A stretch of DNA of 64,000 nucleotides from Escherichia phage ESCO5. The notes beneath the pieces are model-generated. The model ran no database searches. It saw only the letters and a list, made by a program, of their open reading frames with translations, and had not been told where the DNA came from. The stretch is from sequence record NC_047776.2; one strand, 5' to 3'. This document shows positions 34,404-63,449 of this stretch, piece after piece (within the stretch, counting starts at the first letter, position 1; every line of letters starts with the position of its first letter). Made by a program: the position numbers and the translations under genes.

Positions 34404-34612
34404 TATTCCTCCTTAATTATTTCAAACTTGGCAACACCATTTACAATAATATGACCACAAGACATAACTCCTAGCCAAGGATCGCCGTTTTTCTTCAGGC
34501 GTTTACCGAATACATCACAAAAACCATTCTTCATTTCAGAGGCTTCATAAGAAGCCCCTTTATCAAAAACGTCTTTGAATGTGTCGATTATACCAACACA
34601 TTTCAAAATCAT
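34403..34612 (-). CDS. Hypothetical protein
   Basis: 69-aa ORF. Confidence 0.4.
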   Translation of the reverse strand: MILKCVGIIDTFKDVFDKGASYEASEMKNGFCDVFGKRLKKNGDPWLGVMSCGHIIVNGVAKFEIIKEE

Positions 34613-35697
34613 TCGAAGTCAAGCTCCTCATCATCAGAGAGATCTTTGTTAGCTGAATTCAATTTGTAGTTAGTTAACTGAATCTCTTGGGCTGCTGACT
34701 GAATCAAATCAGGATTCAACCATTTTTCCATCCAAGCTAAAGGGCTATGTTTAGGTGCTTTAAACTTGGCTTTCATTTTCAATCGACGATAAATAGGAGC
34801 AGCATTGAAATAAACCCACTGTTTAGACAATTCGGCGTTAAGACCTACAATAAAACGACCTTCACTAAACAGGTAGTCACACCACTGTTCCTCTTGTTCA
34901 ACAACAGTGTCGAGGATCAAAGTCAACTCTTCAATATTGTCTTCGTAAATTTTACGCCAAATTGGGTCATGCATCAATGCATCAATTACAGCATAATCCA
35001 TCTTAACATGCAAGATTTCATCTAGCATAATTTTCTGGATCAGTTTACAAGCTCCAACAAACAGTTGTTGTTCTGCCATAGCAAAAGTAGCAGAGAAGGA
35101 AGATATAAACTGAATACCTTCTAACCCAATCAGGGCTACCATCCCTTTAAGAATCAGCAGTCGAAGTTCATCGTTAGCTTCAATCAATCCTAGAGCATAC
35201 TTATGACCAGCTTCTTCCAACTGACCCATGATATCAGCAATGATACCCATACGATTGAAAATTTTATCATTAATCATAATCTGATTGATGACTTCAATTG
35301 GATCTGGAGTACATTGACGGATTATTTCAGAATACGTTAACGCATGGAGAACTTCCATTTCACTCTGCTTCATCATCATAGCACAGGCTTCATTGTTACT
35401 CAAGAATGGAGAGAACAAAGTGATGATTGATTTTGCAAGAGAATCATTTTCCCATTGGAACGATAAGTTTTTAATCATAACATCATAGTTGTTTTTAGAA
35501 CAAGCTACGAAATCTTTACGTGTCTGATCCAAGTTAACTTCGTTTTCATCCCAATCTTGTGCTTTTTGAAGTTTGTAGAGTTTGTGCATTTCTGGATAAG
35601 TCACGTTAACAGAATCAAAGATCCCTAATTGCTCCCCCAAAAATACTGGATATTTCCCTGTCTTGTAAACTTCGTTGTGTAAATTAATTGCTGCCAT
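34609..35697 (-). CDS. nrdB: Ribonucleotide reductase class Ia beta subunit
   Basis: Di-iron ligand pattern (E..H in EMEVLHALTYSE) and typical size 362 aa. Confidence 0.9.
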   Translation of the reverse strand: MAAINLHNEVYKTGKYPVFLGEQLGIFDSVNVTYPEMHKLYKLQKAQDWDENEVNLDQTRKDFVACSKNNYDVMIKNLSFQWENDSLAKSIITLFSPFLSNNEACAMMMKQSEMEVLHALTYSEIIRQCTPDPIEVINQIMINDKIFNRMGIIADIMGQLEEAGHKYALGLIEANDELRLLILKGMVALIGLEGIQFISSFSATFAMAEQQLFVGACKLIQKIMLDEILHVKMDYAVIDALMHDPIWRKIYEDNIEELTLILDTVVEQEEQWCDYLFSEGRFIVGLNAELSKQWVYFNAAPIYRRLKMKAKFKAPKHSPLAWMEKWLNPDLIQSAAQEIQLTNYKLNSANKDLSDDEELDFE

Positions 35698-36734: not shown

Positions 36735-38978
36735 CTACATTTTACAGGCACTACACCCTTCGTCTTCAGAATCTTCTTGTGCTAAAGAATCTGCTGATTT
36801 TGTTCTACTATTAAGGTAATACAATGATTTGCCACCCAGTCTAGCAAAATTCAGAATAAACTGCATCTCAGCTTTCACGGATAAACGTCCACCTACTAAT
36901 TTAGAATAATCTAGCCAAGAATCACAAGAAATTCCTTGGTCAGTAAATTTGGTAAAGATACCATACATTTCTGCAAGGTCTTTAGCCGGAGTATCCCAGG
37001 CAGATTGGTAGAACATTTTCAGTTTTTCGTAGTCTGGAACAATAAATAATACACTACCTTTCTGACTTTGTTTATACATAATGGTATCACGGACAGGATA
37101 CAGAGAGTTAGTAGTATTGCTTACCAAACTGCTGGACTCATTAGGTGCAATAGCAGCCAATACACTGTTACGGATACCACCTTGTTCAATGATTTCAGCA
37201 CGTAAGCCTTCCCAGTCCATTTTAAGATCAAAATTACCGATACTATCTACTGTTTTAGCATAGGTGTCAATTGGTAGCCAACCTTGAGGCCATTTGGTCT
37301 TATCGATCCATTCCGCATTACCTTTTTCCTTAGCCAGACGCAGAGAGGCTTTTGCCAACCAAAAGTAATGACGTTCTGCAAGTTCATGCATTAATTTTTT
37401 AGCATAAGCATCTGAATAATTTACAAAATTACTTGCCAAGTAATGCGCTAAGTTTGTAATACCTACACCAATAGATCTACGTGCTTTAGCAGTTATTTCG
37501 TTATGTTTAAATGGATAATCCATTGTTTCAATAACGTTGTCAATTGTCAATACAGTGTAGTATGCAACATCCTCATATTCTTCAGGTAATACACGACCAG
37601 CAACAATAGAAGATAAGAAGCATAAAGCCAATTCTTGATCTTCTGTATTCTCACCAGTAAAGAGATCCGGCATACTGTGGAAAGCTTTAGTTGGCAAGAA
37701 GATCTCTTGACACAGGTTTGATTGATACACCGTATCCAGGAAAGGTGTATGGTTGTTAACGTTGTCAGCAAAGAACATGTAAATACGTCCTGTTTCTGCA
37801 CGTTGAACAATAATCTCTGTCAGAAGATCACGAGCCTTAACAAATTTTTTCTTAATGCGACGACGACTTACTTTGTCATAAACTGCATCAAACTCTTCTT
37901 CACTTTTATATAAAGCTTCATAAAGTTCAGGAGCATCATCACAACTAACTAACATCCAGTCTTCGTTTTTTGCTGCTCGACGCAAGAACGAACGGTTAAC
38001 AACAATAGAATAATCTAGTTTATCCACTCGTTTATCTATAGGTGTTGTTGGATTCTTCAGTCGAATCAGATCGTCGAAGTCTGGTTCAAGTATGGTAAAG
38101 GTAACTGTAGCACTACCTCCACGGCTTGCTTGCTTTGAAGCTCCAACACTATCTTCCATCCATTTCAGATACGGAAGAAGACCACCGTGAATAATACGAT
38201 TATTCTTAACACCTTGACCTGTGGCACGAGTTTGAAGATTAACACCAATACCTGCGTTATTCAACGTATACTCATGAGCTAAGTAATTAGCAATGGCTAA
38301 AGACTCTGCCGTATCGTCTGCACGGAATAAACAACAAGACGCACTTCCTTTGATTGGAGTTCGTAGAGTTGTCAGATATGGCGATGGCAGATTAATCTTA
38401 AGATCGCTGACATAAGTATAAAGTTTTTTAATATCTTCTATACGGCGTTCTTTTGGTTGGATCTCCATAACCTTCATTGCGATACCAATGAAAAGGAACT
38501 GTGGAGACTCATGCACCACATCGTTTACTGCATCTCGAATAAGATATTTATCCACCATTTGACGTAAAACAGAATAACCATAAGTTAGATTTTTATTATG
38601 CTTTACAATCTTACCGATTTCTTTGATCTCTTCATCAGTATAATCCATTTTAGCCCAATGACCACGTTCTACCATATCATGATAAAAGGTATTCAGTGAA
38701 GGGATACTGTGGTATCCCCCATGAGCCTGTTTGTAAATCATACCCAGAAGAAGTCTTCCTGCCATATCACTGTAAGCTTGTGTTTTCTTGTCAATACACG
38801 CTGCAATCATTGCTTTATGCAGATCACGTGTAGACACACCGTCATAACACCGCTTCACAGCTTCTAATTCAATTTCAGACCAGTTTAGTTTACCTGCTGC
38901 AAATTCAGACCACTTGCGAAGTTTTTCTGGGTTAAACTCCTCTGTCTTACCATTAGATTTAGTTACAAAACGAATCAA
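36735..38978 (-). CDS. nrdA: Ribonucleotide reductase class Ia alpha subunit
   Basis: 747 aa; N-terminal ATP-cone-like region, catalytic-core motifs and C-terminal CSAC tail. Confidence 0.9.
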   Translation of the reverse strand: MIRFVTKSNGKTEEFNPEKLRKWSEFAAGKLNWSEIELEAVKRCYDGVSTRDLHKAMIAACIDKKTQAYSDMAGRLLLGMIYKQAHGGYHSIPSLNTFYHDMVERGHWAKMDYTDEEIKEIGKIVKHNKNLTYGYSVLRQMVDKYLIRDAVNDVVHESPQFLFIGIAMKVMEIQPKERRIEDIKKLYTYVSDLKINLPSPYLTTLRTPIKGSASCCLFRADDTAESLAIANYLAHEYTLNNAGIGVNLQTRATGQGVKNNRIIHGGLLPYLKWMEDSVGASKQASRGGSATVTFTILEPDFDDLIRLKNPTTPIDKRVDKLDYSIVVNRSFLRRAAKNEDWMLVSCDDAPELYEALYKSEEEFDAVYDKVSRRRIKKKFVKARDLLTEIIVQRAETGRIYMFFADNVNNHTPFLDTVYQSNLCQEIFLPTKAFHSMPDLFTGENTEDQELALCFLSSIVAGRVLPEEYEDVAYYTVLTIDNVIETMDYPFKHNEITAKARRSIGVGITNLAHYLASNFVNYSDAYAKKLMHELAERHYFWLAKASLRLAKEKGNAEWIDKTKWPQGWLPIDTYAKTVDSIGNFDLKMDWEGLRAEIIEQGGIRNSVLAAIAPNESSSLVSNTTNSLYPVRDTIMYKQSQKGSVLFIVPDYEKLKMFYQSAWDTPAKDLAEMYGIFTKFTDQGISCDSWLDYSKLVGGRLSVKAEMQFILNFARLGGKSLYYLNSRTKSADSLAQEDSEDEGCSACKM

Positions 38979-47280: not shown

Positions 47281-48408
47281 TTACTCTGCTGGTTCCCAAG
47301 TGCCTGGGATCATTTCTCGAATACGAACACCAACAGGTTTTGTTGGAATACCTTCATCTGAAAATTCTTCATACTCTATTTCAACGAACTGATTAATCAA
47401 GGTAGAAGCATTCTCTGCTTTACGATAATTGATAGTCTCATGAGCATCTTTACGCATTAAGAATTCGACTACTTTACCATTTTCCATCTCACCTGTCAAC
47501 ACTCCATCGCCATTTTTATCGCTTTTTGAATTTGTTACTTTAACTTCAAGGGTGTGGCGAGGCTTACGTTTAATAACGTCATAAGAACGTTTATCAAATT
47601 CGTAAACTCCGTGAGCATTACGATATACTACACCTTCAGCTTTCTCAAGTAAAGCTTTTTCATAGAAAGCGTCAAACTGCTCTTGGTTTTCAATATACTC
47701 TGTATGAACTACACAAATAAGCTCGTCAAGACCATAATCTTCAACTACTGCCTTAAGAGCAGCAAGAGCATCAACACGTTTTTCAAACGGTAGACCTGGA
47801 ACTGGAATATCGTATACGTAATAATTCAGCAAAGGTGTATTTGCATTATGCTTCTTCCAAGCACTGTTAATTTGTTGCAGACTAAGGACACCTAACCCAG
47901 CAAACACTTCACCATCAAGAGGATGACCAACAACTTCACTAATAAAGTTTGGAATACCTTTCCAATGAGGTGGCAGGTTATACACTTCCCCAGCTTTTGA
48001 TAAACACTCCCCTTTCATGTTAATCATAGAACGTAACCCGTTCAGTTTGTATTGTGCATAACCAGGGAACACAACCCTTTCAGGATAATCTTTATAATCC
48101 TGGCATTTCATTGGTGTGGAAGGAACATGGTTTTCAGCTTCTTCTTTTGTTTTATAATAGCCATTCTTTAACTGTTTTGTCCATTTGGCAAAAGCTTCAA
48201 GTTCAGCTTGTTCTTCCGGTGTTGTTTCATTGGAACGACCAATGTTTTTTGCTTCTGCTGTATAAGATTTTTCTGTGATCTTTCCACCTACTCTTCCATG
48301 AGCTACAGTAACAACTGCACCATCTGTATATACTGTCCACTGTTTAAGTTTTCCTTTTGAATCTTTACCATACAGCGTTTGATTTGTTTGTTGCATTAGT
48401 CCTCCCAT
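47281..48408 (-). CDS. ATP-dependent polynucleotide ligase (nucleotidyltransferase superfamily; DNA or RNA ligase)
   Basis: Motif I variant KLNGLR, motif III LDGEVF, motif IV EGVVYRN, motif V VIKRKP. Confidence 0.6.
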   Translation of the reverse strand: MGGLMQQTNQTLYGKDSKGKLKQWTVYTDGAVVTVAHGRVGGKITEKSYTAEAKNIGRSNETTPEEQAELEAFAKWTKQLKNGYYKTKEEAENHVPSTPMKCQDYKDYPERVVFPGYAQYKLNGLRSMINMKGECLSKAGEVYNLPPHWKGIPNFISEVVGHPLDGEVFAGLGVLSLQQINSAWKKHNANTPLLNYYVYDIPVPGLPFEKRVDALAALKAVVEDYGLDELICVVHTEYIENQEQFDAFYEKALLEKAEGVVYRNAHGVYEFDKRSYDVIKRKPRHTLEVKVTNSKSDKNGDGVLTGEMENGKVVEFLMRKDAHETINYRKAENASTLINQFVEIEYEEFSDEGIPTKPVGVRIREMIPGTWEPAE

Positions 48409-56192: not shown

Positions 56193-56267
56193 GGCCCTGT
56201 AGCTCAATGGGAGAGCTGTCGGCTCATAACCGATAGGTAGCTGGATCGAAACCAGCCAGGGCCACCA
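56193..56267 (+). tRNA. tRNA with CAU anticodon (Met or lysidine-modified Ile2 type)
   Basis: Hand-folded cloverleaf: acceptor GGCCCTG/CAGGGCC, anticodon loop CTCATAA, encoded CCA; resembles E. coli tRNA-Ile2. Confidence 0.7.
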
Positions 56268-56269
56268 AC

Positions 56270-56344
56270 GTCTTTATGGTGTAATGGATAGCACAGGAGT
56301 CTTCTAAACTCTTAGTCAAGGTTCGATTCCTTGTAAAGACACCA
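56270..56344 (+). tRNA. tRNA-Arg (anticodon TCT)
   Basis: Acceptor GTCTTTA/TAAAGAC, anticodon loop CTTCTAA, T-loop TTCGATT, encoded CCA. Confidence 0.7.
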
Positions 56345-56540
56345 GAACATTTTAACATGAATTAGCTCAAGTGATTTGAACCCACTACTGATCATGGTGG
56401 CAGAGAATGAGGCAAGTATGTCAGACATTATAAACAAAGGCCACGGTTATATTAGAAGACATAAATGCTCGAAGAGCACCGTTCGTGGAGAACGGGGGTT
56501 GGTGGAGTCACCATTCATGGTAAAATGTTTTAAAAAACTA

Positions 56541-56570
56541 TTGACAACAAACATTATTTTATGTTAGATT
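56541..56570 (+). promoter_or_regulatory. Sigma70-like promoter with extended -10 (TTGACA, 18 nt spacer, TGnTAGATT)
   Basis: Immediately upstream of tRNA-Ser at 56579. Confidence 0.45.
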
Positions 56571-56578
56571 ATAAGTAT

Positions 56579-56669
56579 GGAAGGGCAAATCGACGTGGCG
56601 ACGAAAACGGTCTTGAAAACCGCCGAGCTTGAAAGAGCCTTGGGAGTTCGACTCTCCCTCCTTCCGCCA
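56579..56669 (+). tRNA. tRNA-Ser (anticodon TGA), type II
   Basis: Anticodon arm CGGTCTTGAAAACCG matches E. coli tRNA-Ser(UGA); long variable arm; discriminator G; encoded CCA. Confidence 0.7.
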
Positions 56670-56674
56670 GATTA

Positions 56675-56760
56675 GGTAGATTGGTGAAATGGTAGCCACG
56701 ACAGTTTGCTAAACTGTAGTCGGAAACGGCGTGTAGGTTCGAGTCCTACATCTACCGCCA
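56675..56760 (+). tRNA. tRNA-Ser (anticodon GCT), type II
   Basis: Acceptor GGTAGAT/ATCTACC, anticodon stem-loop ACAGT-TTGCTAA-ACTGT, long variable arm, discriminator G. Confidence 0.7.
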
Positions 56761-56890
56761 AGTTCTTTTTAATGTAGCTTACTTTAGCAGAGTAAATCTT
56801 CGGCAAGTGGCGGTAACCACTTTACCGATACCTCATAGTTAGTGGTGCGAACACTGGCTATTTTAAAAAGAATTTAAATATTAGTATTTA

Positions 56891-56978
56891 GGTGAGTTAA
56901 TTCCGTAGGGGTAGCGGGGCAGACTGTAAATCTGTTATCATTGCGATTCGGGTGGTTCGACTCCATCACTCACCACCA
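56891..56978 (+). tRNA. tRNA-Tyr (anticodon GTA), type II
   Basis: Anticodon arm GCAGACTGTAAATCTG matches E. coli tRNA-Tyr; long variable arm; discriminator A. Confidence 0.7.
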
Positions 56979-56984
56979 AATTAA

Positions 56985-57070
56985 GATGAGTTGGCTGAAT
57001 GGTTTAAGCGGCGGACTGTTAATCCGTGTTCGAAAGAACAATATAGGTTCGAATCCTATACTCATCGCCA
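56985..57070 (+). tRNA. Type-II-shaped tRNA with GTT (Asn) anticodon and discriminator G
   Basis: Acceptor GATGAGT/ACTCATC, 3-bp D-stem, anticodon arm GCGGACTGTTAATCCGT as in E. coli tRNA-Asn, extra GTTC-GAAA-GAAC hairpin in the variable region, T-arm ATAGG-TTCGAAT-CCTAT. Confidence 0.55.
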
Positions 57071-57077
57071 GAATTAT

Positions 57078-57152
57078 GGACTTGTAGAGTTAAGGTAAAC
57101 CCCCAGTCGCCAATAGGCTTCTGGAATTGCAGGTATCGAATCCTGCCGAGTC
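57078..57152 (+). pseudogene. tRNA-like remnant with aberrant anticodon domain
   Basis: Acceptor-like GGACTTG/CGAGTCC and T-arm-like GCAGG-TATCGAAT-CCTGC (8-nt loop); no 7-nt anticodon loop could be folded. Confidence 0.3.
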
Positions 57153-57160
57153 CCAGCATT

Positions 57161-57235
57161 GCTCCTATAGTATAATGGCTATTACAACGGTTTTGTAATC
57201 CGTGGATCTCTGTTCGATTCAGTGTGGGAGCACCA
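57161..57235 (+). tRNA. tRNA-Thr (anticodon TGT)
   Basis: Acceptor GCTCCTA/TGGGAGC, anticodon loop TTTGTAA, T-loop TTCGATT, encoded CCA. Confidence 0.6.
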
Positions 57236-57508
57236 ACACAACATTAAGAGCACTGTGATTGATCGTCGTATCCTGTGCACAAGGTCTGCTCGAAAGACAG
57301 TGTTCTTAGTATTGTGTTGATCACAAAAAGAGTCACCCGAAACTTGACCGGAGTAGGGTTGGATGGGGCAAAATGAGAAGCGGCTCTCCCATCGACAGCA
57401 ACGAAGAATAATATTTGACTTTTGTTTTGTATTATTTTAAGTTAGCTTACCGAACGTAGGGCTAGTCACCCAACGGGATACTCGTCACTGTCCCACTCAA
57501 TAAAACTA

Positions 57509-57538
57509 TTGACAACCAATAGTAAAATGTAGTATAGT
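57509..57538 (+). promoter_or_regulatory. Sigma70-like promoter (TTGACA, 18 nt spacer, TATAGT)
   Basis: Consensus -35 and near-consensus -10 about 12 nt upstream of tRNA-Gly. Confidence 0.55.
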
Positions 57539-57549
57539 AAAGATGTAGG

Positions 57550-57623
57550 GCGTTCTTGGTGTAGCGGTAGCATTCCGTCCTTCCAAGTCGGCGGCACGAG
57601 TTCGATCCTCGTAGAACGCTCCA
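57550..57623 (+). tRNA. tRNA-Gly (anticodon TCC)
   Basis: Acceptor GCGTTCT/AGAACGC, anticodon loop CTTCCAA, T-arm ACGAG-TTCGATC-CTCGT, discriminator T, encoded CCA. Confidence 0.7.
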
Positions 57624-57721
57624 AATTATTTAATAAAGGGTTGCCAGAAAACTTTCTCTTTTACTCATGGTTTTCTCCTTCTCTCACACTTCTTCTGGTT
57701 GCCCTTCATTAAATGATTTAT

Positions 57722-57797
57722 TGGTTTGTAGTGTAGTCCGGTAGCACACGACACTTTGACTGTCGTAGGTTTGGTTCAAATCCAGACAGACCAGCCA
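57722..57797 (+). tRNA. tRNA-Gln (anticodon TTG)
   Basis: U1-A72 start and discriminator G as in E. coli tRNA-Gln; anticodon stem-loop CGACA-CTTTGAC-TGTCG; encoded CCA. Confidence 0.7.
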
Positions 57798-57890
57798 TAT
57801 AACAAAGGTGAGTCACTACCTTAAGTGTGAAGTTAAAAACGAGGAGCCGCCGAACACTTTCTTTTGCGGTGTACCTTTAGAATGTTATCA

Positions 57891-57975
57891 CGGGACGTAG
57901 CACAGCTTGGTAGTGCGCTCGCTTTGGGAGCGAGAGGTCGAGTGTTCGAATCACTCCGTCCCGACCAATTAAATG
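57891..57975 (+). tRNA. tRNA-Pro (anticodon TGG)
   Basis: Acceptor CGGGACG/CGTCCCG, D-stem GCAC/GTGC, anticodon stem-loop CTCGC-TTTGGGA-GCGAG, T-loop TTCGAAT, encoded CCA. Confidence 0.7.
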
Positions 57976-57981
57976 TTTCGT

Positions 57982-58057
57982 AGTTCAATGGTAGAACCCA
58001 CGACTGATAATCGTGAGACACAAGTTCGATTCTTGTCGAAACAACCAGTTTCCCGTT
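57982..58057 (+). tRNA. tRNA-Ile (anticodon GAT)
   Basis: Acceptor TGTTTCG/CGAAACA, D-stem GTTC/GAAC, anticodon stem-loop CACGA-CTGATAA-TCGTG, encoded CCA. Confidence 0.65.
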
Positions 58058-58059
58058 AG

Positions 58060-58129
58060 ACTTACAGGATAAGAGATCCACAATTTATTGTGACGCTGGT
58101 TCGAATCCAGCACGGGATACATAATAGCG
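58060..58129 (+). pseudogene. tRNA-like remnant with perfect T-arm but no foldable anticodon loop
   Basis: T-arm GCTGG-TTCGAAT-CCAGC and acceptor-like TTCCCGT/ACGGGAT; central hairpin CACAA-TTTA-TTGTG has a 4-nt loop; no CCA. Confidence 0.3.
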
Positions 58130-58135
58130 GGATAG

Positions 58136-58214
58136 AGGAGTCTGGTCGTCCTCGCCAGTTTCATATGCTGGAGATCATTGGTTCAAATCCAATTCCCGCC
58201 TCCAAATATCGCTT
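58136..58214 (+). tRNA. tRNA with CAT anticodon (Met type) and mismatched 1:72 pair
   Basis: Anticodon stem-loop CCAGT-TTCATAT-GCTGG, T-arm ATTGG-TTCAAAT-CCAAT, encoded CCA; A1 opposite C72. Confidence 0.6.
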
Positions 58215-58848: not shown

Positions 58849-59022
58849 ATGCGCAATTTTGTAGTTAAAAATGATTTTAACCGTTCTTCTTATCATAAAG
58901 ATAAAAAGAATGATTACACACGGGCTTGGAACTTGGAGGAAGAACTTTATGATGACAGAGAAGACGTGGGAAGAGATCCTAGCGGAGGCTCAACCAATGG
59001 AAGTGAAGAAGATAGTTAATAA
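58849..59022 (+). CDS. Small hydrophilic protein (57 aa)
   Basis: ORF below the track cutoff with strong SD GAGGAGG; overlaps the track ORF 58871-59086 in another frame. Confidence 0.4.
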
Positions 59023-59069
59023 TGCCCCTTCTCTTCCTAAAATAAAATTTTATGAGGAAGTAGAAGATA

Positions 59070-59462
59070 ATGAATCTAAAGACTAAAACTGTATTAGGTT
59101 TTGTTTTAATTGTTGTTCTTATTTTTGCCGGAATGTTTGCTTATAACAAGATACGTGAGTCTGGCTACAAAGATGGTGTTGCCTATCAAACGCAATTATA
59201 TCAAGCAGCCCAAGCAAAAGCAAAACAGGATTTTGATGTTCTTCAAAAAAGAGCCGATGAAGAAAGAGCATTATTAAATACTCAAATAAACAACTTGTCT
59301 AAAAACAATGCACAATTAAGAGCAGATTTAGAGAAGAAGAAACAAACGATCAATGAGGATACAACGAATTATGCAAAAACTAATTCTGGCAGTATGTCTT
59401 GCTTTGCCCCTAATGATGATGGGTTGTTCATCATCAATAAAAGTTTCCCCAGTTCTTATTGA
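59070..59462 (+). CDS. Inner-membrane spanin-like protein (i-spanin candidate)
   Basis: N-terminal transmembrane helix followed by a charged coiled-coil region; overlapped at its 3' end by a lipoprotein ORF. Confidence 0.5.
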   Translation: MNLKTKTVLGFVLIVVLIFAGMFAYNKIRESGYKDGVAYQTQLYQAAQAKAKQDFDVLQKRADEERALLNTQINNLSKNNAQLRADLEKKKQTINEDTTNYAKTNSGSMSCFAPNDDGLFIINKSFPSSY

Positions 59463-59697
59463 TGAGTGTAAGGCTGTAGCCATAGAAAAGGTTAAAGGTC
59501 CAGATTCGGATTTGATGGATAAAGTATCGACACCTGTACCATACACTAAAAATCAAATTGCAAAAGGGGTTAGTAGATCTGAAGTTGTTAACAACCAAAC
59601 TCAAAACAACGCTCTTTGGGAGCAAGATAGACGAAAGGTTTTAGGTTTACAAACATATATTAAAACACTGCAAGAAAAAGGTATTATTGCTGAATAA
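59353..59697 (+). CDS. Outer-membrane lipoprotein spanin-like protein (o-spanin candidate)
   Basis: Signal peptide with lipobox-like LMMMGC followed by SSS; overlaps the i-spanin candidate out of frame. Confidence 0.4.
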   Translation: MRIQRIMQKLILAVCLALPLMMMGCSSSIKVSPVLIDECKAVAIEKVKGPDSDLMDKVSTPVPYTKNQIAKGVSRSEVVNNQTQNNALWEQDRRKVLGLQTYIKTLQEKGIIAE

Positions 59698-59706
59698 GGA
59701 GGGAAT

Positions 59707-61782
59707 GTGGCAAAGAAAAAGGCAGCAGGTAGTTTAGCTGGAGTAGATATTGAAGTAAAGGCTCAACCAGGTAAACAGACTCTTGCAATGGATTTAATGC
59801 CAGAAGTTATGATTTATGGTGGTGCCGCTGGATGTGTTTCTGCTGAAACGGAATATCTTACAAAAGATGGTTGGAAACAGATTAGTGAATATTCGGGAGA
59901 GGATATTTACCAATACAACCCTAAGAATAAGCGTTTAGAATTGGTAACACCTTACTTTGTAGAATACGATTTAAATGGAGATAATCTATACAGAATAACA
60001 AATGGTGTAGGATTGTTCCAAGAACTTAGTATGGAACACCGTTTTGTATTCTATAAGAAAAAGAAATCAAAGAAACATTTCGAGATTCTTGTAGGAGATC
60101 TTATTGCATTACAGCAAATAGGAAAACCCCTGCAAGGTTATGTAGAAAATCCATTCGGTAAACGTGTTCCTTTTAACATACCTGGTAAAAAGAGCACTTA
60201 CTTAAAAATACACGAGGTTATTTCAACAGATGATAAGAAATATTGTTTTGAGACTCCAAGCAGCTATATTGTCTTTAGACGTGGCGATCACTGCTTCGTT
60301 ACTGGGAATAGCGGCAAGTCTCGTCTGCTATTGCTGAAAGCTTTAAAATACGCCTACAAAGACCCTTTGTTTGGGGGAATACTTTTCCGTAAGAACACCA
60401 CTGCTCACCGTAAACCAGGTGGTCTGTTTACAGAAGCAAAACGTTTGTATCTTCCTTTACAACCGCACGTAAAAGAAAGTACAATGGATATCATTTTTGA
60501 AGCCACTGGTGGCGGAACCCTCAAATTCGACCATTTGGAAAATGATAACGTAACAGCAGAAACAAACCATCAGGGTACACAGTATTCAATGGTAGGTTTT
60601 GACGAGTTAACCCACTTCACGCAATATGAAATGCTCTATCTTCTGGGACGTATGCGTTCAGAATCAGAAACAAGCTTCATGTTGTGCACATGTAACCCCG
60701 ATGCAGATAGTTGGGTTTTGAATTGGGTGTTACCTTATCTTGATGAGGGTGGTTATCCTAGAGAAGATATGTGTGGTAAACAAAAATATTTCATCATTGT
60801 TAACGATGAACCTGTTTTTGCTGACACACCTGAAGAACTGAAAGAAAAATATCCAGAAAACTGTTTCATGGAAAACCCTAATACAGGGGAGACAGTTGTT
60901 ATTGAACCACAAACTTTCGTATTTATTGGTGGGACAATATTTGATAACCCAGAACTGATTAGGCTTAACCCTAATTACTTAGCACAGCTTAAATCACAAA
61001 CAGCAATTAAAAGAGCACAGCTTCTGGATGGTTGTTGGTTTGCACGTATTCAGAAAGAATCTTTCTTTCAACGTGAATGGTTACATAAAATATCTTATAA
61101 AGATGTTCCTAACAATCTTAAACTAATGCGAGCCTGGGATAAAGCTGTTTCAGTTCCTACAGAAACTTATCGTTATCCAGACTATACAACGTCTGTCAAA
61201 ATGGGTAAAGATCAAGATGGTAATATCTACATCTTTGGTGACTATGACTATGACGCTGTGGATGAGAAAAGTAAAATTTTCGGAAGGTTTAGAAGACTAC
61301 CTGGGGAAAGGGATAATCTGATTCTTAATCAATGTAAGATTGATGGACCAGAAGTTACAGTAGTGCTTCCTAAAGACCCATCTGGTGCTGGGACAATAGA
61401 ATATACAGAGTCTGCAAAGAAACTTATTCTAGAAGGTTTTGTTGTTAAACCAGACGCTATGCCAGGCAACAAGAAAAAGCTTCAGCGTTTTATGCCTTTT
61501 AGTAGTGCGTGTCAAAATGGTTTTGTTTATATTGTTGAAGATTCTTTCCCTAATGTGGAAACTCTAACCCACTTTTATAAAGAATTGGAATCTTTCAATG
61601 GTGAAAGATCTACAGCCACTATTAAAGATGACATTCCCGATGCTGCTGCTTCTTGTTTCAATACTCTGTCAAAAGAGAATACTTTTAAGGCAGTAGCTAT
61701 CCCTACAACAACAAATGCTCCTACAGGATACAGTAGAATGAACAGCGGATTTCACCAACCGTATAGTGTCCGTAAAAGATAA
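59707..61782 (+). CDS. Terminase large subunit, interrupted by a mini-intein
   Basis: Split Walker A YGGAAG...SGKS, Walker B MVGFDELTHF, size and position upstream of the portal gene. Confidence 0.75.
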   Translation: MAKKKAAGSLAGVDIEVKAQPGKQTLAMDLMPEVMIYGGAAGCVSAETEYLTKDGWKQISEYSGEDIYQYNPKNKRLELVTPYFVEYDLNGDNLYRITNGVGLFQELSMEHRFVFYKKKKSKKHFEILVGDLIALQQIGKPLQGYVENPFGKRVPFNIPGKKSTYLKIHEVISTDDKKYCFETPSSYIVFRRGDHCFVTGNSGKSRLLLLKALKYAYKDPLFGGILFRKNTTAHRKPGGLFTEAKRLYLPLQPHVKESTMDIIFEATGGGTLKFDHLENDNVTAETNHQGTQYSMVGFDELTHFTQYEMLYLLGRMRSESETSFMLCTCNPDADSWVLNWVLPYLDEGGYPREDMCGKQKYFIIVNDEPVFADTPEELKEKYPENCFMENPNTGETVVIEPQTFVFIGGTIFDNPELIRLNPNYLAQLKSQTAIKRAQLLDGCWFARIQKESFFQREWLHKISYKDVPNNLKLMRAWDKAVSVPTETYRYPDYTTSVKMGKDQDGNIYIFGDYDYDAVDEKSKIFGRFRRLPGERDNLILNQCKIDGPEVTVVLPKDPSGAGTIEYTESAKKLILEGFVVKPDAMPGNKKKLQRFMPFSSACQNGFVYIVEDSFPNVETLTHFYKELESFNGERSTATIKDDIPDAAASCFNTLSKENTFKAVAIPTTTNAPTGYSRMNSGFHQPYSVRKR
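59833..60309 (+). mobile_element. Mini-intein (159 aa, HINT domain only) in the terminase P-loop
   Basis: Begins CVSAETEYLT (block A, Cys1), contains SMEHRF (block B TxxH-like), ends DHCFVTGN with +1 Ser; resembles the Ssp DnaE intein termini. Confidence 0.7.
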
Positions 61783-61785
61783 TTG

Positions 61786-61814
61786 TTGACAAAAGTCACT
61801 TTAAAGTGTATTAT
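61786..61814 (+). promoter_or_regulatory. Sigma70-like promoter (TTGACA, 17 nt spacer, TATTAT)
   Basis: Consensus hexamers upstream of the portal gene. Confidence 0.55.
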
Positions 61815-61883
61815 AACTAGATAGGTGAGGTTGTATATAATACAGCCTTGCCTTAACGATTTTATACCTGACTGGAGGAACAA

Positions 61884-63449
61884 GTGTCAACAGGAAAAAG
61901 AACGTACACTAAAAAGTCAGAATACTGGGACAAAGGTGCTGCAAATAAAGCTGCTCTCTCTCCAACAAAAGAAGCAGAGAAAGAGAAAACGTTACTCCTG
62001 TCACCTGAAATAGGAACGATCGGATTAAACTCAATCAAAGCATTTACGAATTTCATGCAGCCTTATGAGACTCGTTTCCCAGAATGTATTCGAACTTTTA
62101 AAGAGATGGGTGAAGACCCTGATGTAGCTACTGCTCTTGATGCTACGTATATCTTTGTAGATAGAGCATTCTTTGATTTTAAGATAAAATACAATGTAAG
62201 CTCGGCAAAGTCAAGAAAAGCTGCTAAGTTTATCGATTATATGTTACGTAATATGCAAGCCCCTCTACGTCAATATGTTAGATCACTTTTGACATATAAG
62301 CAATACGGGTTTGCATTCGCAGAAAAAGTTTATGAGTTGGATGAAGATCCTAAGAGTCCTTACTTTGGGTATTGGCGATTAACTAAGCTGGCTTTTAGAC
62401 CACAAGATACTCTTCACATGGCTCAACCTTTTACATATTCGGCAGACGGACGTTCTATCTTGTCTGTTAACCAGAATATCACCAATACAATGTTAGCCCC
62501 AGGTAATACAACTTTAGAAACTGGTATTAAAGAAATTCCTTTCAGTAAAGTTTTATTTGTTGGTAGCAACATTACAGAGAATAACCCACTAGGAGTTAGT
62601 CCGCTTTTAGCTGTATATCGTAGCTGGCGTGAAAAATCTCTTATTCAGGAATTTGAGGTTATTGGGGTATCTAAAGATTTAGGCGGTATGCCAGTTCTTA
62701 AGGTTCCAAGTGACATTCTAAACAGGGCATCTTTAGATCCTGCTGGGGATGAAGCACAATCTCTTCGAGTTCTCCAAGCCAACATCGCTAACCTGCACTC
62801 TGGTGAGCAAGCCTACATGGTATTGCCTTCAGACGTTTATGAAGGTACAGTGATGCGTCAATACGATCTTGTATTCCAAGGTGTTGATGGCACGGGTAAA
62901 CAGTTTGACACTCAAGCACTAATCAAACAACGCAAACTAGATATTTATAACCGCTTTGGTGCGGGTGTGTTGATTATGGGTGATGGTGATGCAGGAAGTT
63001 TTGCGCTTTCTGACAACAAACAAACACTATTGTCTCATTTTATTGAGCGAGATGTAGATATTGTTGTAGAAGCTATAAACTCTCAACTAATCCCTCAAAC
63101 ACTACGACTAAACAATATCTTCCTTTCTGATGAAGATATGCCTAAGTTTGTCAGTGGTGAAATGGGTGATCCTGATATTGAAGTAAATGCTAAAGCTATT
63201 CAACAGTTGGTAGCCTCTGGTGCAATACCTTTAACCCCAGAAGTTATTAACGAGTTCCTTGAAAAAATTGGTTTTGAATATCGCATCCCTGACGATATTG
63301 TTGCCAATAAAGAGAAATTCTTTGAATTCATGGATAACTATATGCCTGACAAAACTTCACGATCAGGAGATGGTTTAGCTACAGCAGGGACTGGAACATC
63401 TGATACTGTTTCTGCTTTAGATCCTTCAGCACAAAACCTGTCGAATTAA
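61884..63449 (+). CDS. Putative portal protein
   Basis: 521-aa ORF immediately downstream of the terminase; GTG start after GGAGG; call is positional. Confidence 0.5.
   Translation: MSTGKRTYTKKSEYWDKGAANKAALSPTKEAEKEKTLLLSPEIGTIGLNSIKAFTNFMQPYETRFPECIRTFKEMGEDPDVATALDATYIFVDRAFFDFKIKYNVSSAKSRKAAKFIDYMLRNMQAPLRQYVRSLLTYKQYGFAFAEKVYELDEDPKSPYFGYWRLTKLAFRPQDTLHMAQPFTYSADGRSILSVNQNITNTMLAPGNTTLETGIKEIPFSKVLFVGSNITENNPLGVSPLLAVYRSWREKSLIQEFEVIGVSKDLGGMPVLKVPSDILNRASLDPAGDEAQSLRVLQANIANLHSGEQAYMVLPSDVYEGTVMRQYDLVFQGVDGTGKQFDTQALIKQRKLDIYNRFGAGVLIMGDGDAGSFALSDNKQTLLSHFIERDVDIVVEAINSQLIPQTLRLNNIFLSDEDMPKFVSGEMGDPDIEVNAKAIQQLVASGAIPLTPEVINEFLEKIGFEYRIPDDIVANKEKFFEFMDNYMPDKTSRSGDGLATAGTGTSDTVSALDPSAQNLSN

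What the first reader, a model, noticed from the sequence alone, without database searches (positions are those of the whole stretch)
59833..60309. Mini-intein inserted in the Walker A P-loop of the large terminase
The terminase reads YGGAAG, then 159 residues beginning with Cys (CVSAETEYLT...) and ending ...DHCFVTGN, then SGKS. Removing the insert restores a contiguous P-loop GAAGSGKS. The insert has intein blocks A and B (SMEHRF) and a C-terminal Asn followed by Ser, and is too short to contain a homing-endonuclease domain. Terminase maturation would therefore depend on protein splicing, which may act as a conditional switch on packaging.
Basis: partly seen in the sequence, partly recalled or inferred. 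Interest (0 to 1): 0.65.

Follow-up and report, generated by a model that had tools for sequence, protein, structure and literature searches.

The report
Unannotated mini-intein splitting terminase P-loop
The large terminase gene of this phAPEC8-like E. coli phage is interrupted, inside its ATP-binding loop, by a 159-residue self-splicing protein element (a mini-intein). It must cut itself out before the phage can package DNA. This kind of element is known, but databases have missed it here, and it has an unusual two-cysteine active site.

Summary
ORF 59707-61782 (+) encodes a 691-aa large terminase reading YGGAAG | 159 aa (Cys ... Thr-Gly-Asn) | SGKS, and the insert is nt 59833-60309.

The intein reading is strongly supported:
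- Syntenic homologues without the insert read YGGAAGSGKSRL with no gap.
- Other homologues carry 146-328-aa inserts at the same codon. The long ones fold as HINT plus a LAGLIDADG homing endonuclease.
- The window's insert folds as a pure HINT domain (pLDDT 93); all 50 listed PDB matches are inteins, Hedgehog or BIL domains.
- C1, H69, C138, G158 and N159 are invariant.
- dN/dS is 0.05, the same as for the terminase itself.

Pfam and NCBIfam do not recognise the insert. About 130 published Stephanstirmvirinae genomes, including phi92 and phAPEC8, carry it, and no record checked annotates it.

It belongs to a very large, mostly endonuclease-bearing family with the signature C1 / S-x-x-H / Y-C(F:4) / T-G-N. 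The closest characterised relative is the AceL NrdHF class-3 intein, which shares every catalytic position except Ala1.

Whether splicing starts at Cys1, at Cys138, or uses both is unresolved. The "conditional switch" idea has no support.

Verdict: a real new member of a known kind, of moderate interest.

The parts
59707..61782 (+). Large terminase (TerL) precursor ORF, 691 aa including the intein; stop codon 61780-61782
   Evidence: ORF. Pfam Terminase_6N E=5e-17, residues 202-460; 99.7-99.9% identical to the TerL of Klebsiella phage ZCKP1, Escherichia phages ESCO13, phAPEC8_ev052 and others.
59707..59832 (+). N-extein (42 aa), ending with the first half of Walker A (GAAG, 59821-59832)
   Evidence: Aligns without a gap to insert-less homologues.
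59833..60309 (+). Mini-intein, 159 aa, HINT domain only, no homing endonuclease
   Evidence: AF2 pLDDT 93.4, pTM 0.86. All 50 listed Foldseek PDB matches are HINT domains, the best being 6zgq, E=1.3e-6, TM 0.70/0.73. Profile versus 6zgq E=1.2e-11. dN/dS 0.053.
59833..59835 (+). Cys1 (block A:1), the N-terminal splice-junction nucleophile
   Evidence: Invariant in 31/31 allelic TerL inserts and in 185/186 family domains.
60028..60045 (+). Block B: S66-M-E-H69-R70-F71 (B:7 Ser, B:10 His, B:11 Arg, B:12 Phe)
   Evidence: H is 186/186 and S/T is 177/186 in the family. Aligns to S65, H68, R69 and M70 of the AceL NrdHF intein. The roles of those residues were tested by mutagenesis in PMC7891396.
60055..60075 (+). 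Conserved Lys-rich loop KKKKSKK (intein residues 75-81). It lies close to where relatives carry the endonuclease domain; its function is unknown.
   Evidence: Identical in 14 of the other 15 members of the 158-159-aa clade; one reads KKRKSKK. Position read.
60241..60258 (+). Block F: Y137-C138-F-E-T-P142; Cys at F:4, followed by the conserved kink Pro
   Evidence: C is 183/186, Y 161/186 and P 125/186 in the family. C138 aligns with C124 of AceL NrdHF, its experimentally shown branch-point nucleophile, and P142 with P128.
60277..60279 (+). Arg149, a family-wide near-invariant residue in the C-terminal hairpin
   Evidence: R is 181/186 and nearly invariant in the TerL inserts. Its role is inferred only.
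60301..60309 (+). Block G: T157-G158-N159 (G:5 Thr, G:6 Gly in place of the usual His, G:7 terminal Asn)
   Evidence: In the family N is 186/186, G is 183/186 and T/S is 171/186. The AceL NrdHF C-terminus is the same T-G-N|S.
60310..61779 (+). C-extein (490 aa). It starts with Ser+1 (60310-60312), the first residue of SGKS (60310-60321), the second half of Walker A.
   Evidence: In the family the +1 residue is S 107, C 50, T 29 of 186.

Best explanation
The 477-nt insert encodes a genuine, splicing-competent mini-intein: a HINT domain with no homing endonuclease. It sits between the 4th and 5th residues of the TerL Walker A motif (GAAG|SGKS). It is translated as part of a 78.7-kDa precursor whose ATP-binding loop is split, so the precursor cannot work as a packaging ATPase.

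The intein folds, joins Gly42 to Ser+1 and leaves as an 18.6-kDa product by cyclisation of Asn159. This yields the 532-aa terminase with a contiguous P-loop.

It descends from an endonuclease-bearing mobile intein of a very large, phage-associated family with the signature C1 / (S/T)xxH / Y-C at F:4 / (T/S)-G-N. It has lost the endonuclease and is now inherited vertically and fixed in Stephanstirmvirinae. It persists because only a perfectly precise deletion would be viable, and it is kept under strong purifying selection because it must splice efficiently.

My committed mechanism, which is inferred rather than shown:
- Splicing is constitutive and starts with an N-S acyl shift at the almost invariant Cys1.
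- His69 and Ser66 strain the scissile bond.
- Cys138 (F:4) lies between the two junctions and assists or relays the acyl group to Ser+1.
- Arg70 (B:11) compensates for the missing penultimate His during Asn159 cyclisation, as Arg69 does in the homologous AceL NrdHF intein.

Sub-probabilities, given that it splices: Cys1-initiated with Cys138 auxiliary about 0.5; Cys138 as the obligate first nucleophile (class-3 type) about 0.3; obligate two-cysteine relay about 0.15.
For: Shown by the tools:
- The insertion coordinates are exact and removal restores the P-loop.
- Insert-less homologues read YGGAAGSGKSRL with no gap. One lies in a syntenic TerL-portal locus on a 141-kb contig.
- Allelic inserts of 146-328 aa sit at the same codon. 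All begin with Cys and end (T/S)GN before SGKS.
- Long alleles carry 'LRLQVAVMADG' and give weak Pfam LAGLIDADG_3 hits. The modelled one folds like HINT plus LAGLIDADG inteins: TliVMA E=1.3e-11, then PI-SceI, PI-PfuI and I-DmoI.
- The window insert has a confident HINT model and all 50 listed PDB matches are HINT domains.
- The invariant positions are exactly the catalytic ones.
- A profile of the inserts matches the AceL NrdHF intein (E=1.2e-11; hhalign 96.8%), and the C-termini align C138=C124, T157=T144, G158=G145, N159=N146, Ser+1.
- The same element interrupts PhoH, primase-helicase, SF1 helicase, RtcB and RNR proteins. 78 of 186 copies sit at G|xGK[ST].
- dN/dS is 0.053 for the intein and 0.059 for the extein, and intein and extein identities co-vary over 16 relatives.
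- No RNA-family match in 59000-62000, so nothing suggests an intron.

From the literature:
- P-loop and TerL inteins are common in phages (PMC5050341, PMC4760082).
- The roles of S65, H68, R69, C124, T144 and G145 in AceL NrdHF were established by mutagenesis and a crystal structure (PMC7891396).

Inference: phages carrying this allele are plaque-forming isolates, so the split Walker A must be repaired in vivo.
Against: - No experiment shows splicing of this protein.
- No curated intein profile (Pfam, NCBIfam) matches the window insert, even at E<=1. Only 9 of 31 allelic inserts give sub-threshold Intein_splicing hits.
- The usual penultimate His and the F:4 Asp are absent.
- The class of mechanism cannot be decided from sequence. 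The closest characterised homologue works without any residue-1 nucleophile, which argues that Cys138 could be the true initiator.
- I could not read model coordinates, so the proximity of C1, C138 and N159 rests on homology to 6zgq rather than measured distances.
- dS is near saturation (1.7-2.0), so the dN/dS values are approximate.
Confidence: 0.9

Rival explanations
1. It is an intein, but it splices by the class-3 route. Cys138 (block F:4) attacks the N-terminal junction directly and forms a block-F branched thioester. The N-extein then moves to Ser+1. Cys1 is dispensable, or only a backup.
For: - The closest characterised homologue, AceL NrdHF (6zgq), shares S(B:7), H(B:10), R(B:11), a hydrophobic B:12, C(F:4), the kink Pro, T(G:5), G(G:6), N(G:7) and Ser+1. 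It was shown experimentally to use C124 as the first branch point with Ala at position 1 (PMC7891396).
- Cys F:4 is 183/186 in the family.
- Ser or Thr at +1 in 136/186 copies fits the class-3 pattern.
- Tori et al. [quoted passage not shown]
- From my memory of Tori & Perler 2011 (not held), such inteins spliced without needing residue 1.
Against: - Cys1 is kept in 185/186 family domains and in all 31 TerL alleles. That is hard to explain if it is dispensable.
- Rare members have Ser or Gly at F:4 with Cys1 intact (P0151, P0249), which suggests Cys1 alone can suffice.
- Trp B:12 of the class-3 triplet is absent.
- Apart from 6zgq, canonical class-3 structures (6bs8) match the model no better than class-1 inteins.
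Confidence: 0.3
2. The intein acts as a conditional (for example redox- or temperature-gated) switch that times or throttles DNA packaging. One route would be a reversible Cys1-Cys138 disulfide that blocks splicing under oxidising conditions.
For: - There are two catalytic cysteines that should lie close together, by homology with 6zgq.
- Redox control by catalytic-cysteine disulfides is documented for the class-3 DnaB intein of M. smegmatis (PMC6195587 abstract).
- Novikova et al. argue that P-loop inteins may be retained for function.
- The element has been held under strong constraint through divergence to about 67% extein identity.
- It carries a strictly conserved Lys-rich loop of unknown role.
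Against: - There is no direct evidence.
- The constraint is fully explained by the need to splice from an essential protein and by the lethality of imprecise deletion.
- Related phages with similar genome size and synteny do without the intein.
- The homologous AceL NrdHF intein splices in minutes to near completion over wide pH and temperature ranges, which is how a constitutive element behaves.
Confidence: 0.1
3. The insert is a degenerate HINT-derived or ordinary insertion domain that stays in the mature terminase, or only self-cleaves like a bacterial intein-like domain, and is not spliced out.
For: - No curated intein profile hit.
- It lacks the canonical penultimate His and the F:4 Asp.
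- One GenBank record interprets the region as an 'N-terminal endonuclease domain'.
Against: - The insert splits GxxxxGK[ST] between its 4th and 5th residues. No functional P-loop NTPase tolerates 159 residues there (established knowledge of Walker A).
- All residues needed for both junction reactions and ligation are invariant: C1, H69, N159, Ser+1.
- The family inserts at catalytic motifs of many unrelated enzymes.
- BIL domains lack the +1 nucleophile (PMC4031507), and it is present here.
Confidence: 0.02
4. The insert is removed at the RNA level (an in-frame intron or translational bypass), or it is an assembly artefact.
For: Introns carrying HNH genes do interrupt TerL genes in related Vequintavirinae (Pectobacterium phage CB7).
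Against: - The insert is an uninterrupted reading frame with dN/dS 0.05 and a confidently predicted protein fold.
- No Rfam match in 59000-62000.
- The same sequence is present at 98-100% identity in 63 independently sequenced phage records.
Confidence: 0.01

Closest known systems
AceL NrdHF-1-1 intein (PDB 6zgq; Hoffmann et al. 2020, PMC7891396): a naturally split, atypical class-3 intein from an Antarctic lake phage-like contig
   Same: - It is the best structural match (Foldseek E=1.3e-6, TM 0.70/0.73, 20% identity).
- It is the only PDB sequence with a significant profile match (E=1.2e-11; hhalign 96.8%).
- The catalytic constellation is the same: Ser B:7, His B:10, Arg B:11, a non-Trp hydrophobic B:12, Cys F:4, the kink Pro four residues later, Thr G:5, Gly G:6, Asn G:7 and Ser+1. 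Neither has a conserved F:13 or G:6 His.
   Different: - AceL has Ala at position 1. The window intein, and 185/186 of its family, has Cys.
- AceL is split into two genes around a GIY-YIG endonuclease gene; this one is contiguous.
- The host protein is RNR NrdHF rather than TerL.
- Only AceL has been tested experimentally.
Mycobacteriophage TerL P-loop inteins TerL1-a and TerL1-b (Kelley et al. 2016, PMC5050341)
   Same: - Inteins inserted in the Walker A motif of the large terminase ATPase domain.
- Splicing is required to form the active site and the pentamer.
- The penultimate His is often replaced, for example by Gly.
   Different: - Those are in Terminase_1-type TerL. TerL1-a sits between the Lys and Thr of GK|T, and TerL1-b one residue away.
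- Here the host is Terminase_6-type and the site is three residues upstream (G|SGKS).
- In mycobacteriophages, Terminase_6 inteins were found only in the C-motif.
- The host range differs: Actinobacteria versus Enterobacteria. I did not test sequence relatedness between the two.
Canonical class-3 (WCT) inteins, e.g. mycobacteriophage Bethlehem DnaB and M. smegmatis DnaBi1 (PMC2807308, PMC6195587)
   Same: - Cys at F:4, Thr at G:5 and Ser/Thr at +1.
- Frequent insertion in ATPase P-loops of phage helicases and terminases.
- Proposed phage origin.
   Different: - The defining absence of a residue-1 nucleophile is not met, and neither is Trp at B:12.
- The penultimate residue is Gly rather than His.
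- 6bs8 matches the model no better than class-1 inteins do, and it is not found by the sequence profile.
HINT plus LAGLIDADG bifunctional inteins (PI-SceI, TliVMA/PhoVMA, PI-PfuI)
   Same: The long alleles at the same TerL codon (e.g. P0028, 327 aa) fold like these: TliVMA E=1.3e-11, PI-SceI 2e-10. The window intein has the same splicing domain.
   Different: The window copy lacks the whole endonuclease domain, so it cannot home by itself. Its secondary-structure elements after block B (strand 82-86, helix 87-95, strand 102-105) match the strand-helix-strand that precedes the LAGLIDADG helices in the long form. No endonuclease remnant is evident.

Membership tests
Intein (protein-splicing HINT element) | In-frame insertion in a conserved host-protein motif, with homologues that lack it and read through without a gap | tested here: met
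   YGGAAG|...|SGKS versus YGGAAGSGKSRL in more than 60 homologues. A syntenic empty site is present in L003.
Intein (protein-splicing HINT element) | Hedgehog/intein (HINT) fold | tested here: met
   AF2 pLDDT 93.4. All 50 listed Foldseek PDB matches are inteins, Hedgehog or BIL domains.
Intein (protein-splicing HINT element) | Block A nucleophile (Cys/Ser/Thr at position 1) and block B (T/S)xxH | tested here: met
   C1, S66 and H69. They are invariant or nearly so in 31 alleles and 186 family domains.
Intein (protein-splicing HINT element) | C-terminal Asn followed by Ser/Thr/Cys at +1 | tested here: met
   N159 is 186/186. Ser+1: the family has S 107, C 50 and T 29.
Intein (protein-splicing HINT element) | Penultimate His (G:6) and Asp at F:4, typical of class 1 but not universal | tested here: not met
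   The window has G158 and C138 instead. Gly at G:6 is known in phage inteins, and G145H is deleterious in the homologous AceL intein.
Intein (protein-splicing HINT element) | Match to curated intein sequence models (Pfam Intein_splicing, Hint_2 and others; NCBIfam intein N- and C-terminal models) | tested here: not met
   No family at E<=1 for the window insert. 9 of 31 alleles give sub-threshold Intein_splicing hits, best E=0.003.
Intein (protein-splicing HINT element) | Demonstrated excision and extein ligation | not testable with these tools
   Needs expression followed by SDS-PAGE and mass spectrometry. It is inferred here from the viability of more than 130 isolates that carry a split Walker A.
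Mini-intein (no homing endonuclease) | Splicing domain only; no LAGLIDADG, HNH or other endonuclease domain between blocks B and F | tested here: met
   159 aa, with a model built almost wholly of HINT strands and one short helix. No endonuclease family hit. Long alleles carry a LAGLIDADG domain. Only 9 of 186 family copies are <=180 aa.
Class 3 inteins | No Cys/Ser/Thr nucleophile at intein position 1 | tested here: not met
   Cys1 is present, and is 185/186 in the family.
Class 3 inteins | WCT triplet: Trp B:12, Cys F:4, Thr G:5 | tested here: inconclusive
   Cys F:4 (C138) and Thr G:5 (T157) are present. B:12 is Phe (the family has V/M/I/L/F, never Trp). The validated class-3 AceL intein also lacks Trp, having Met.
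Class 3 inteins | Block-F branched thioester intermediate; Cys F:4 obligatory and residue 1 dispensable | not testable with these tools
   Requires C1A, C138A and S+1A mutants and trapping of the intermediate.
Terminase large subunit, Terminase_6 / T4-type | N-terminal P-loop ATPase with a Walker A motif, plus a C-terminal nuclease | tested here: met
   Terminase_6N E=5e-17. Terminase_6C appears in the precomputed Pfam of homologues. PHROG phrog_979 E=9e-217. A Mu-like portal gene lies directly downstream. Walker A is contiguous only after removal of the insert.
Bacterial intein-like (BIL) / Hedgehog autoprocessing domains | HINT fold without a +1 nucleophile; cleavage rather than ligation | tested here: not met
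   The +1 residue is Ser/Cys/Thr in 186/186 copies and the terminal Asn is invariant. The definition of BILs is from PMC4031507.

The most novel reading that the evidence does not exclude
The window intein belongs to a large, profile-invisible intein lineage in which two cysteines (position 1 and block F:4) are both kept. In the most novel reading, both act in splicing, either as a sequential thioester relay (Cys1 to Cys138 to Ser+1) or as alternative initiators. That would make this lineage a mechanistic bridge between class 1 and class 3. It would also imply that the class-3 chemistry of AceL NrdHF arose inside this Cys1 family, independently of the canonical WCT class-3 inteins, which the literature treats as monophyletic. 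A corollary is that a Cys1-Cys138 disulfide could make terminase maturation redox-sensitive.
Probability: 0.15. Interest if true: 0.7.

Novelty: new member of a known kind. Interest (0 to 1): 0.4.

Why it matters
- **Annotation.** A real intein sits unmarked in the terminase gene of about 130 public genomes of well-used E. coli, Klebsiella and Shigella phages. These include phi92, phAPEC8, therapy candidates and BASEL collection members. Standard profiles do not see it, and PHROG terminase and PhoH-like profiles have absorbed it. A 2024 paper states that no inteins have been reported in coliphages. TerL is the usual marker for phage phylogeny and for predicting packaging strategy, so an unnoticed 159-aa insert distorts alignments and trees.

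- **Mechanism.** The element offers a contiguous, naturally E. coli-adapted relative of the AceL NrdHF class-3 intein that keeps Cys1. A handful of point mutants in an E. coli expression system would show how class-1 and class-3 chemistries interconvert.

- **Biology.** It sits in an essential late gene of a genetically tractable phage. Comparing a precise deletion with the wild type is a clean test of whether P-loop inteins are merely stuck parasites or have been co-opted for regulation.

- **Tools.** A small, apparently robust mini-intein with Ser+1 and a Gly at -1 may be useful for protein engineering.

Tried and rejected
- **Single-sequence searches.** Searches with the insert against Pfam, NCBIfam and PDB sequences gave nothing meaningful. 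Only a profile of allelic inserts and a structure prediction revealed what it is.
- **C-terminal profile.** A profile of the last 52 residues (A3) against PDB found only chance similarity to clostridial toxin 'DGKKYYF' repeats, not 6zgq, whose C124 and N146 are mutated to Ala. I obtained the C-terminal alignment instead from the AceL sequence in the paper's supplement.
- **Profile search of the 5.8-billion-protein set.** With A2 it returned mostly short TerL fragments with no source names, and it added little.
- **Missing paper.** Tori & Perler 2011, on class-3 inteins that begin with Ser or Cys, is not held. What I say about it is from memory and is marked as such.
- **Literature searches.** Searches for intein plus phAPEC8, Phapecoctavirus, phi92 or Stephanstirmvirinae found no description of this intein. 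The library is incomplete, so an earlier report cannot be excluded.
- **Possible endonuclease remnant.** MAFFT placed the window's 'VGDLIALQQ' under the LAGLIDADG helix 'EGELRLQVA' of the long alleles. I rejected this because the order of secondary-structure elements in the two models matches that helix to the strand-helix-strand that precedes the endonuclease domain.
- **Possible frameshift site.** I considered the A-rich stretch 60055-60075 as a -1 frameshift site. I rejected it because the heptamer is G AAA AAG rather than A AAA AAG, the shifted frame stops after about 11 codons, and the Lys residues are conserved at the protein level.
- **Intron or artefact.** Rejected.
- **Other copies.** A six-frame search of the whole window with the family HMM found no second copy. 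The RNR large subunit in the window is uninterrupted.
Full report
**1. Observation**

The window holds an ORF at 59707-61782 on the + strand: GTG start, GGAGG four bases upstream, 691 aa.
- Codon 43 (59833-59835) is Cys, codon 201 (60307-60309) is Asn, and codon 202 is Ser.
- The protein reads ...MIYGGAAG | CVSAETEYLT...SMEHRF...KKYCFETPSSYIVFRRGDHCFVTGN | SGKSRLLL....
- The insert is exactly 477 nt / 159 aa, and its removal gives GAAGSGKS.

So the coordinates, the sequence strings and the arithmetic of the finding (532-aa product, about 18-kDa insert) are all correct.

**2. Host gene and genome**

Residues 202-460 match Pfam Terminase_6N (E=5e-17), and the whole protein matches PHROG phrog_979 'terminase large subunit' (E=9e-217).

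A Mu-type portal gene follows at 61884-63449. Two overlapping small ORFs precede the terminase gene. They occupy the place of the i-spanin and o-spanin genes annotated directly upstream of TerL in the related BASEL phage JohannJBalmer.

The protein is 99.7-99.9% identical to the TerL of Klebsiella phage ZCKP1 and Escherichia phages ESCO13, phAPEC8_ev052 and many others. The window therefore comes from a Phapecoctavirus (subfamily Stephanstirmvirinae).

**3. Presence/absence polymorphism**

Of the 120 best homologues, more than 60 have an uninterrupted YGG(A/S)AGSGKSRL. That group includes 62-64%-identical proteins of 514-517 aa.

One of these proteins is encoded in a syntenic TerL-portal locus on a 141-kb contig. 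There the empty site reads IYGGAAG|SGKSRLILLKAL, with no gap relative to the window's joined exteins.

Thirty-seven other homologues carry an insert at the same codon. Its length is 146-159 aa, 246 aa or 301-328 aa. It always begins with Cys and ends (T/S)-G-N before SGKS.

The long inserts contain 'EGELRLQVAVMADG' and give weak LAGLIDADG_3 hits. A family member in another protein passes the Pfam threshold (P0124).

An AF2 model of one long allele (327 aa, pLDDT 85.9) matches bifunctional inteins and free LAGLIDADG enzymes: TliVMA E=1.3e-11, then PI-SceI, PI-PfuI and I-DmoI.

An insert that is variably present, sits at one exact codon of a catalytic motif, and occurs with and without a homing endonuclease is the classical population signature of an intein.

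**4. Fold**

With the 31 allelic inserts as the alignment, AF2 gives a confident model of the window insert: pLDDT 93.4, pTM 0.86, almost all beta.

All 50 listed Foldseek PDB matches are HINT domains, meaning inteins, Hedgehog or BIL domains. The best is the AceL NrdHF class-3 split intein 6zgq (E=1.3e-6, TM 0.70/0.73).

There is no room for an endonuclease and no sign of one.

**5. Family and signature**

A profile of the allelic inserts finds 11,774 cluster representatives at E<=1e-3 among 1.84 billion proteins.

I analysed 186 full-length copies in the 148 top-scoring proteins not already retrieved:

| Position | Count (of 186) |
|---|---|
| Position 1 Cys | 185 |
| B:7 Ser/Thr | 177 |
| B:10 His | 186 |
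| B:12 | V/M/I/L/F, never Trp |
| F:4 Cys | 183 |
| Arg equivalent to window R149 | 181 |
| G:5 Thr/Ser | 171 |
| G:6 Gly | 183 |
| G:7 Asn | 186 |
| +1 residue | Ser 107, Cys 50, Thr 29 |

- The median length is 316 aa. Only 9 copies are <=180 aa, so the window's mini form is the exception.
- 78 copies sit at the same Walker A position (G|xGK[S/T]) of diverse NTPases.
- Hosts include PhoH, Toprim/DnaB-like primase-helicases, SF1 helicases, RtcB and RNR.

Pfam and NCBIfam intein models do not detect the window copy. They detect only 9 of 31 alleles, all below threshold.

**6. Closest characterised relative**

The insert profile matches one PDB sequence significantly, AceL NrdHF (E=1.2e-11; hhalign 96.8%), and does so in register from residue 5 to 73.

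Using the AceL sequence from the paper's supplement, the C-termini also align:

| AceL NrdHF | Window intein |
|---|---|
| ...EFHCLSVPGKSFVVTDEHGNRSVTGN\|S | ...KKYCFETPSSYIVFRRGDHCFVTGN\|S |
| C124 | C138 |
| P128 | P142 |
| T144 | T157 |
| G145 | G158 |
| N146 | N159 |

In block B, S65, H68, R69 and M70 of AceL correspond to S66, H69, R70 and F71 of the window intein.

For AceL, mutagenesis and a 1.9-A structure gave the following:
- C124 is the first branch-point nucleophile.
- H68 is essential.
- S65 and T144 contribute to the reaction.
- R69 compensates for the missing penultimate His.
- G145H is deleterious.
- The Pro-Gly kink explains the absence of the F:13 His.

The one difference at a catalytic position is residue 1, which is Ala in AceL and Cys here.

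**7. Evolution**

Within the phage database, 139 records hold a full-length insert-containing TerL.
- The insert DNA is 98-100% identical in 63 Phapecoctavirus-type records.
- At the protein level it is 87% identical in phi92 and other Justusliebigvirus phages, and 72-84% identical in Klebsiella relatives.

Intein and extein identities fall together across 16 relatives: intein 99 to 53%, extein 100 to 67%.

Against phage JohannJBalmer, dN/dS is 0.053 for the intein and 0.059 for the extein, with dS near saturation.

The element is therefore ancient in this subfamily, vertically inherited, and as constrained as the essential enzyme that hosts it. Without an endonuclease it cannot home.

**8. 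How it works: shown versus inferred**

Shown:
- the split Walker A;
- the HINT fold;
- intact junction residues;
- homology to an experimentally active intein;
- purifying selection;
- empty-site and endonuclease-bearing alleles.

Inferred from established knowledge:
- A P-loop split by 159 residues cannot bind ATP, and TerL ATPase activity is essential for packaging.
- These phages form plaques, so the intein must splice in E. coli.

Inferred by homology:
- His69 and Ser66 strain the N-terminal scissile bond.
- Cys138 lies between the two junctions.
- Arg70 helps cyclisation of Asn159.

Not resolved: which cysteine initiates.
- Near-absolute retention of Cys1, plus rare F:4 Ser or Gly variants that keep Cys1, argue for Cys1.
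- AceL's proven C124-first chemistry with Ala1 argues that Cys138 can initiate.
- I commit to Cys1 initiation with Cys138 assisting or relaying (about 0.5). The alternatives are a class-3 route (about 0.3) and an obligate relay (about 0.15).

I found nothing that supports a regulatory switch, though two adjacent catalytic thiols make redox sensitivity conceivable.

**9. Comparison with what is known**

Inteins in terminases and in ATPase P-loops are well documented. The kind is therefore not new.

The differences from the described mycobacteriophage cases are:
- the TerL type, Terminase_6 rather than Terminase_1;
- the exact site, G|SGKS rather than GK|T;
- the host clade.

It meets every structural and positional criterion for an intein except the non-universal G:6 His and F:4 Asp. 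It fails the defining class-3 criterion (no residue-1 nucleophile) but carries the rest of an atypical class-3 active site.

**10. Novelty and limits**

- No phage record I inspected annotates the intein. One record calls the region an 'N-terminal endonuclease domain'.
- The BASEL table lists 0 inteins for EmilieFrey, although its TerL carries the insert.
- Literature searches found no report of it.
- A 2024 paper says inteins are unreported in coliphages.
- The searchable library is incomplete, and I could not query InBase or InterPro, so prior recognition of this family cannot be excluded.

Overall this is a solid, correctly interpreted finding of a known kind. Its added value is for annotation, and it opens a tractable mechanistic question.

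Noticed in passing
window 56193-58204 (+): A cluster of 10 tRNA genes (Met, Arg, Ser, Asn, Thr, Gly, Gln, Pro, Ile, Met) lies about 1.5 kb upstream of the terminase gene. The 82-aa minus-strand ORF at 57833-58081 listed by the ORF finder overlaps the tRNA-Pro and tRNA-Ile genes on the opposite strand and is probably spurious.
   Followed up: partly
window 60055-60075 (intein residues 75-81): A Lys-rich loop, KKKKSKK, is one of the most conserved stretches of the 158-159-aa TerL mini-inteins outside the catalytic blocks. It is identical in 14 of the other 15 clade members, and one reads KKRKSKK. It lies close to where relatives carry the endonuclease domain. Its function is unknown; a frameshift-site reading was considered and rejected.
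   Followed up: partly
window 59070-59462 and 59353-59697 (+): Two overlapping small ORFs lie directly upstream of TerL. The second has a lipobox-like LMMMGCSSS. They occupy the place of the i-spanin and o-spanin genes annotated upstream of TerL in the related BASEL phage JohannJBalmer. They have no Pfam hits.
   Followed up: partly
L001 (MZ501084.1) and BASEL S5 table; MZ501063.1 802-1275: The BASEL collection table counts 0 inteins for phage EmilieFrey and 1-2 for its relatives, yet all of them carry the TerL insert. The variable inteins counted there must lie in other genes. The TerL intein was missed because it is fixed in the clade.
   Followed up: partly
PHROG phrog_979 and phrog_32482 (matches to window 59833-60309): The intein alone matches the PHROG 'terminase large subunit' profile (E=8e-28) and a 'PhoH-like' profile (E=4e-12). 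These family profiles have absorbed intein sequence, so they can link unrelated host proteins through it.
   Followed up: no
P0125 (2602 aa), P0175, P0180, P0243 and others: Some metagenomic proteins carry three to six copies of this intein family, sometimes only 4-7 residues apart (e.g. ...SGN SGYQ C... in P0125). I did not identify their host proteins.
   Followed up: no
P0126, P0270-P0276 (about 285-308 aa): Several relatives are short proteins made of the N-extein, the mini-intein and only about 85 aa of C-extein. Their TerL genes may be further interrupted downstream, for example by introns like those reported in the TerL of Pectobacterium phage CB7, or the genes may be truncated.
   Followed up: no
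L004 1-448 (Logan ERR12405939 contig): In one of the intein-less relatives, an IS605 OrfB / Cas12f-like TnpB gene lies a few kb upstream of TerL.
   Followed up: no
window 36735-38978 (-), 34609-35697 (-), 47281-48408 (-): The RNR large subunit, RNR small subunit and an ATP-dependent DNA ligase are encoded in the window. The RNR large subunit is a frequent host of this intein family elsewhere, but it is uninterrupted here.
   Followed up: yes
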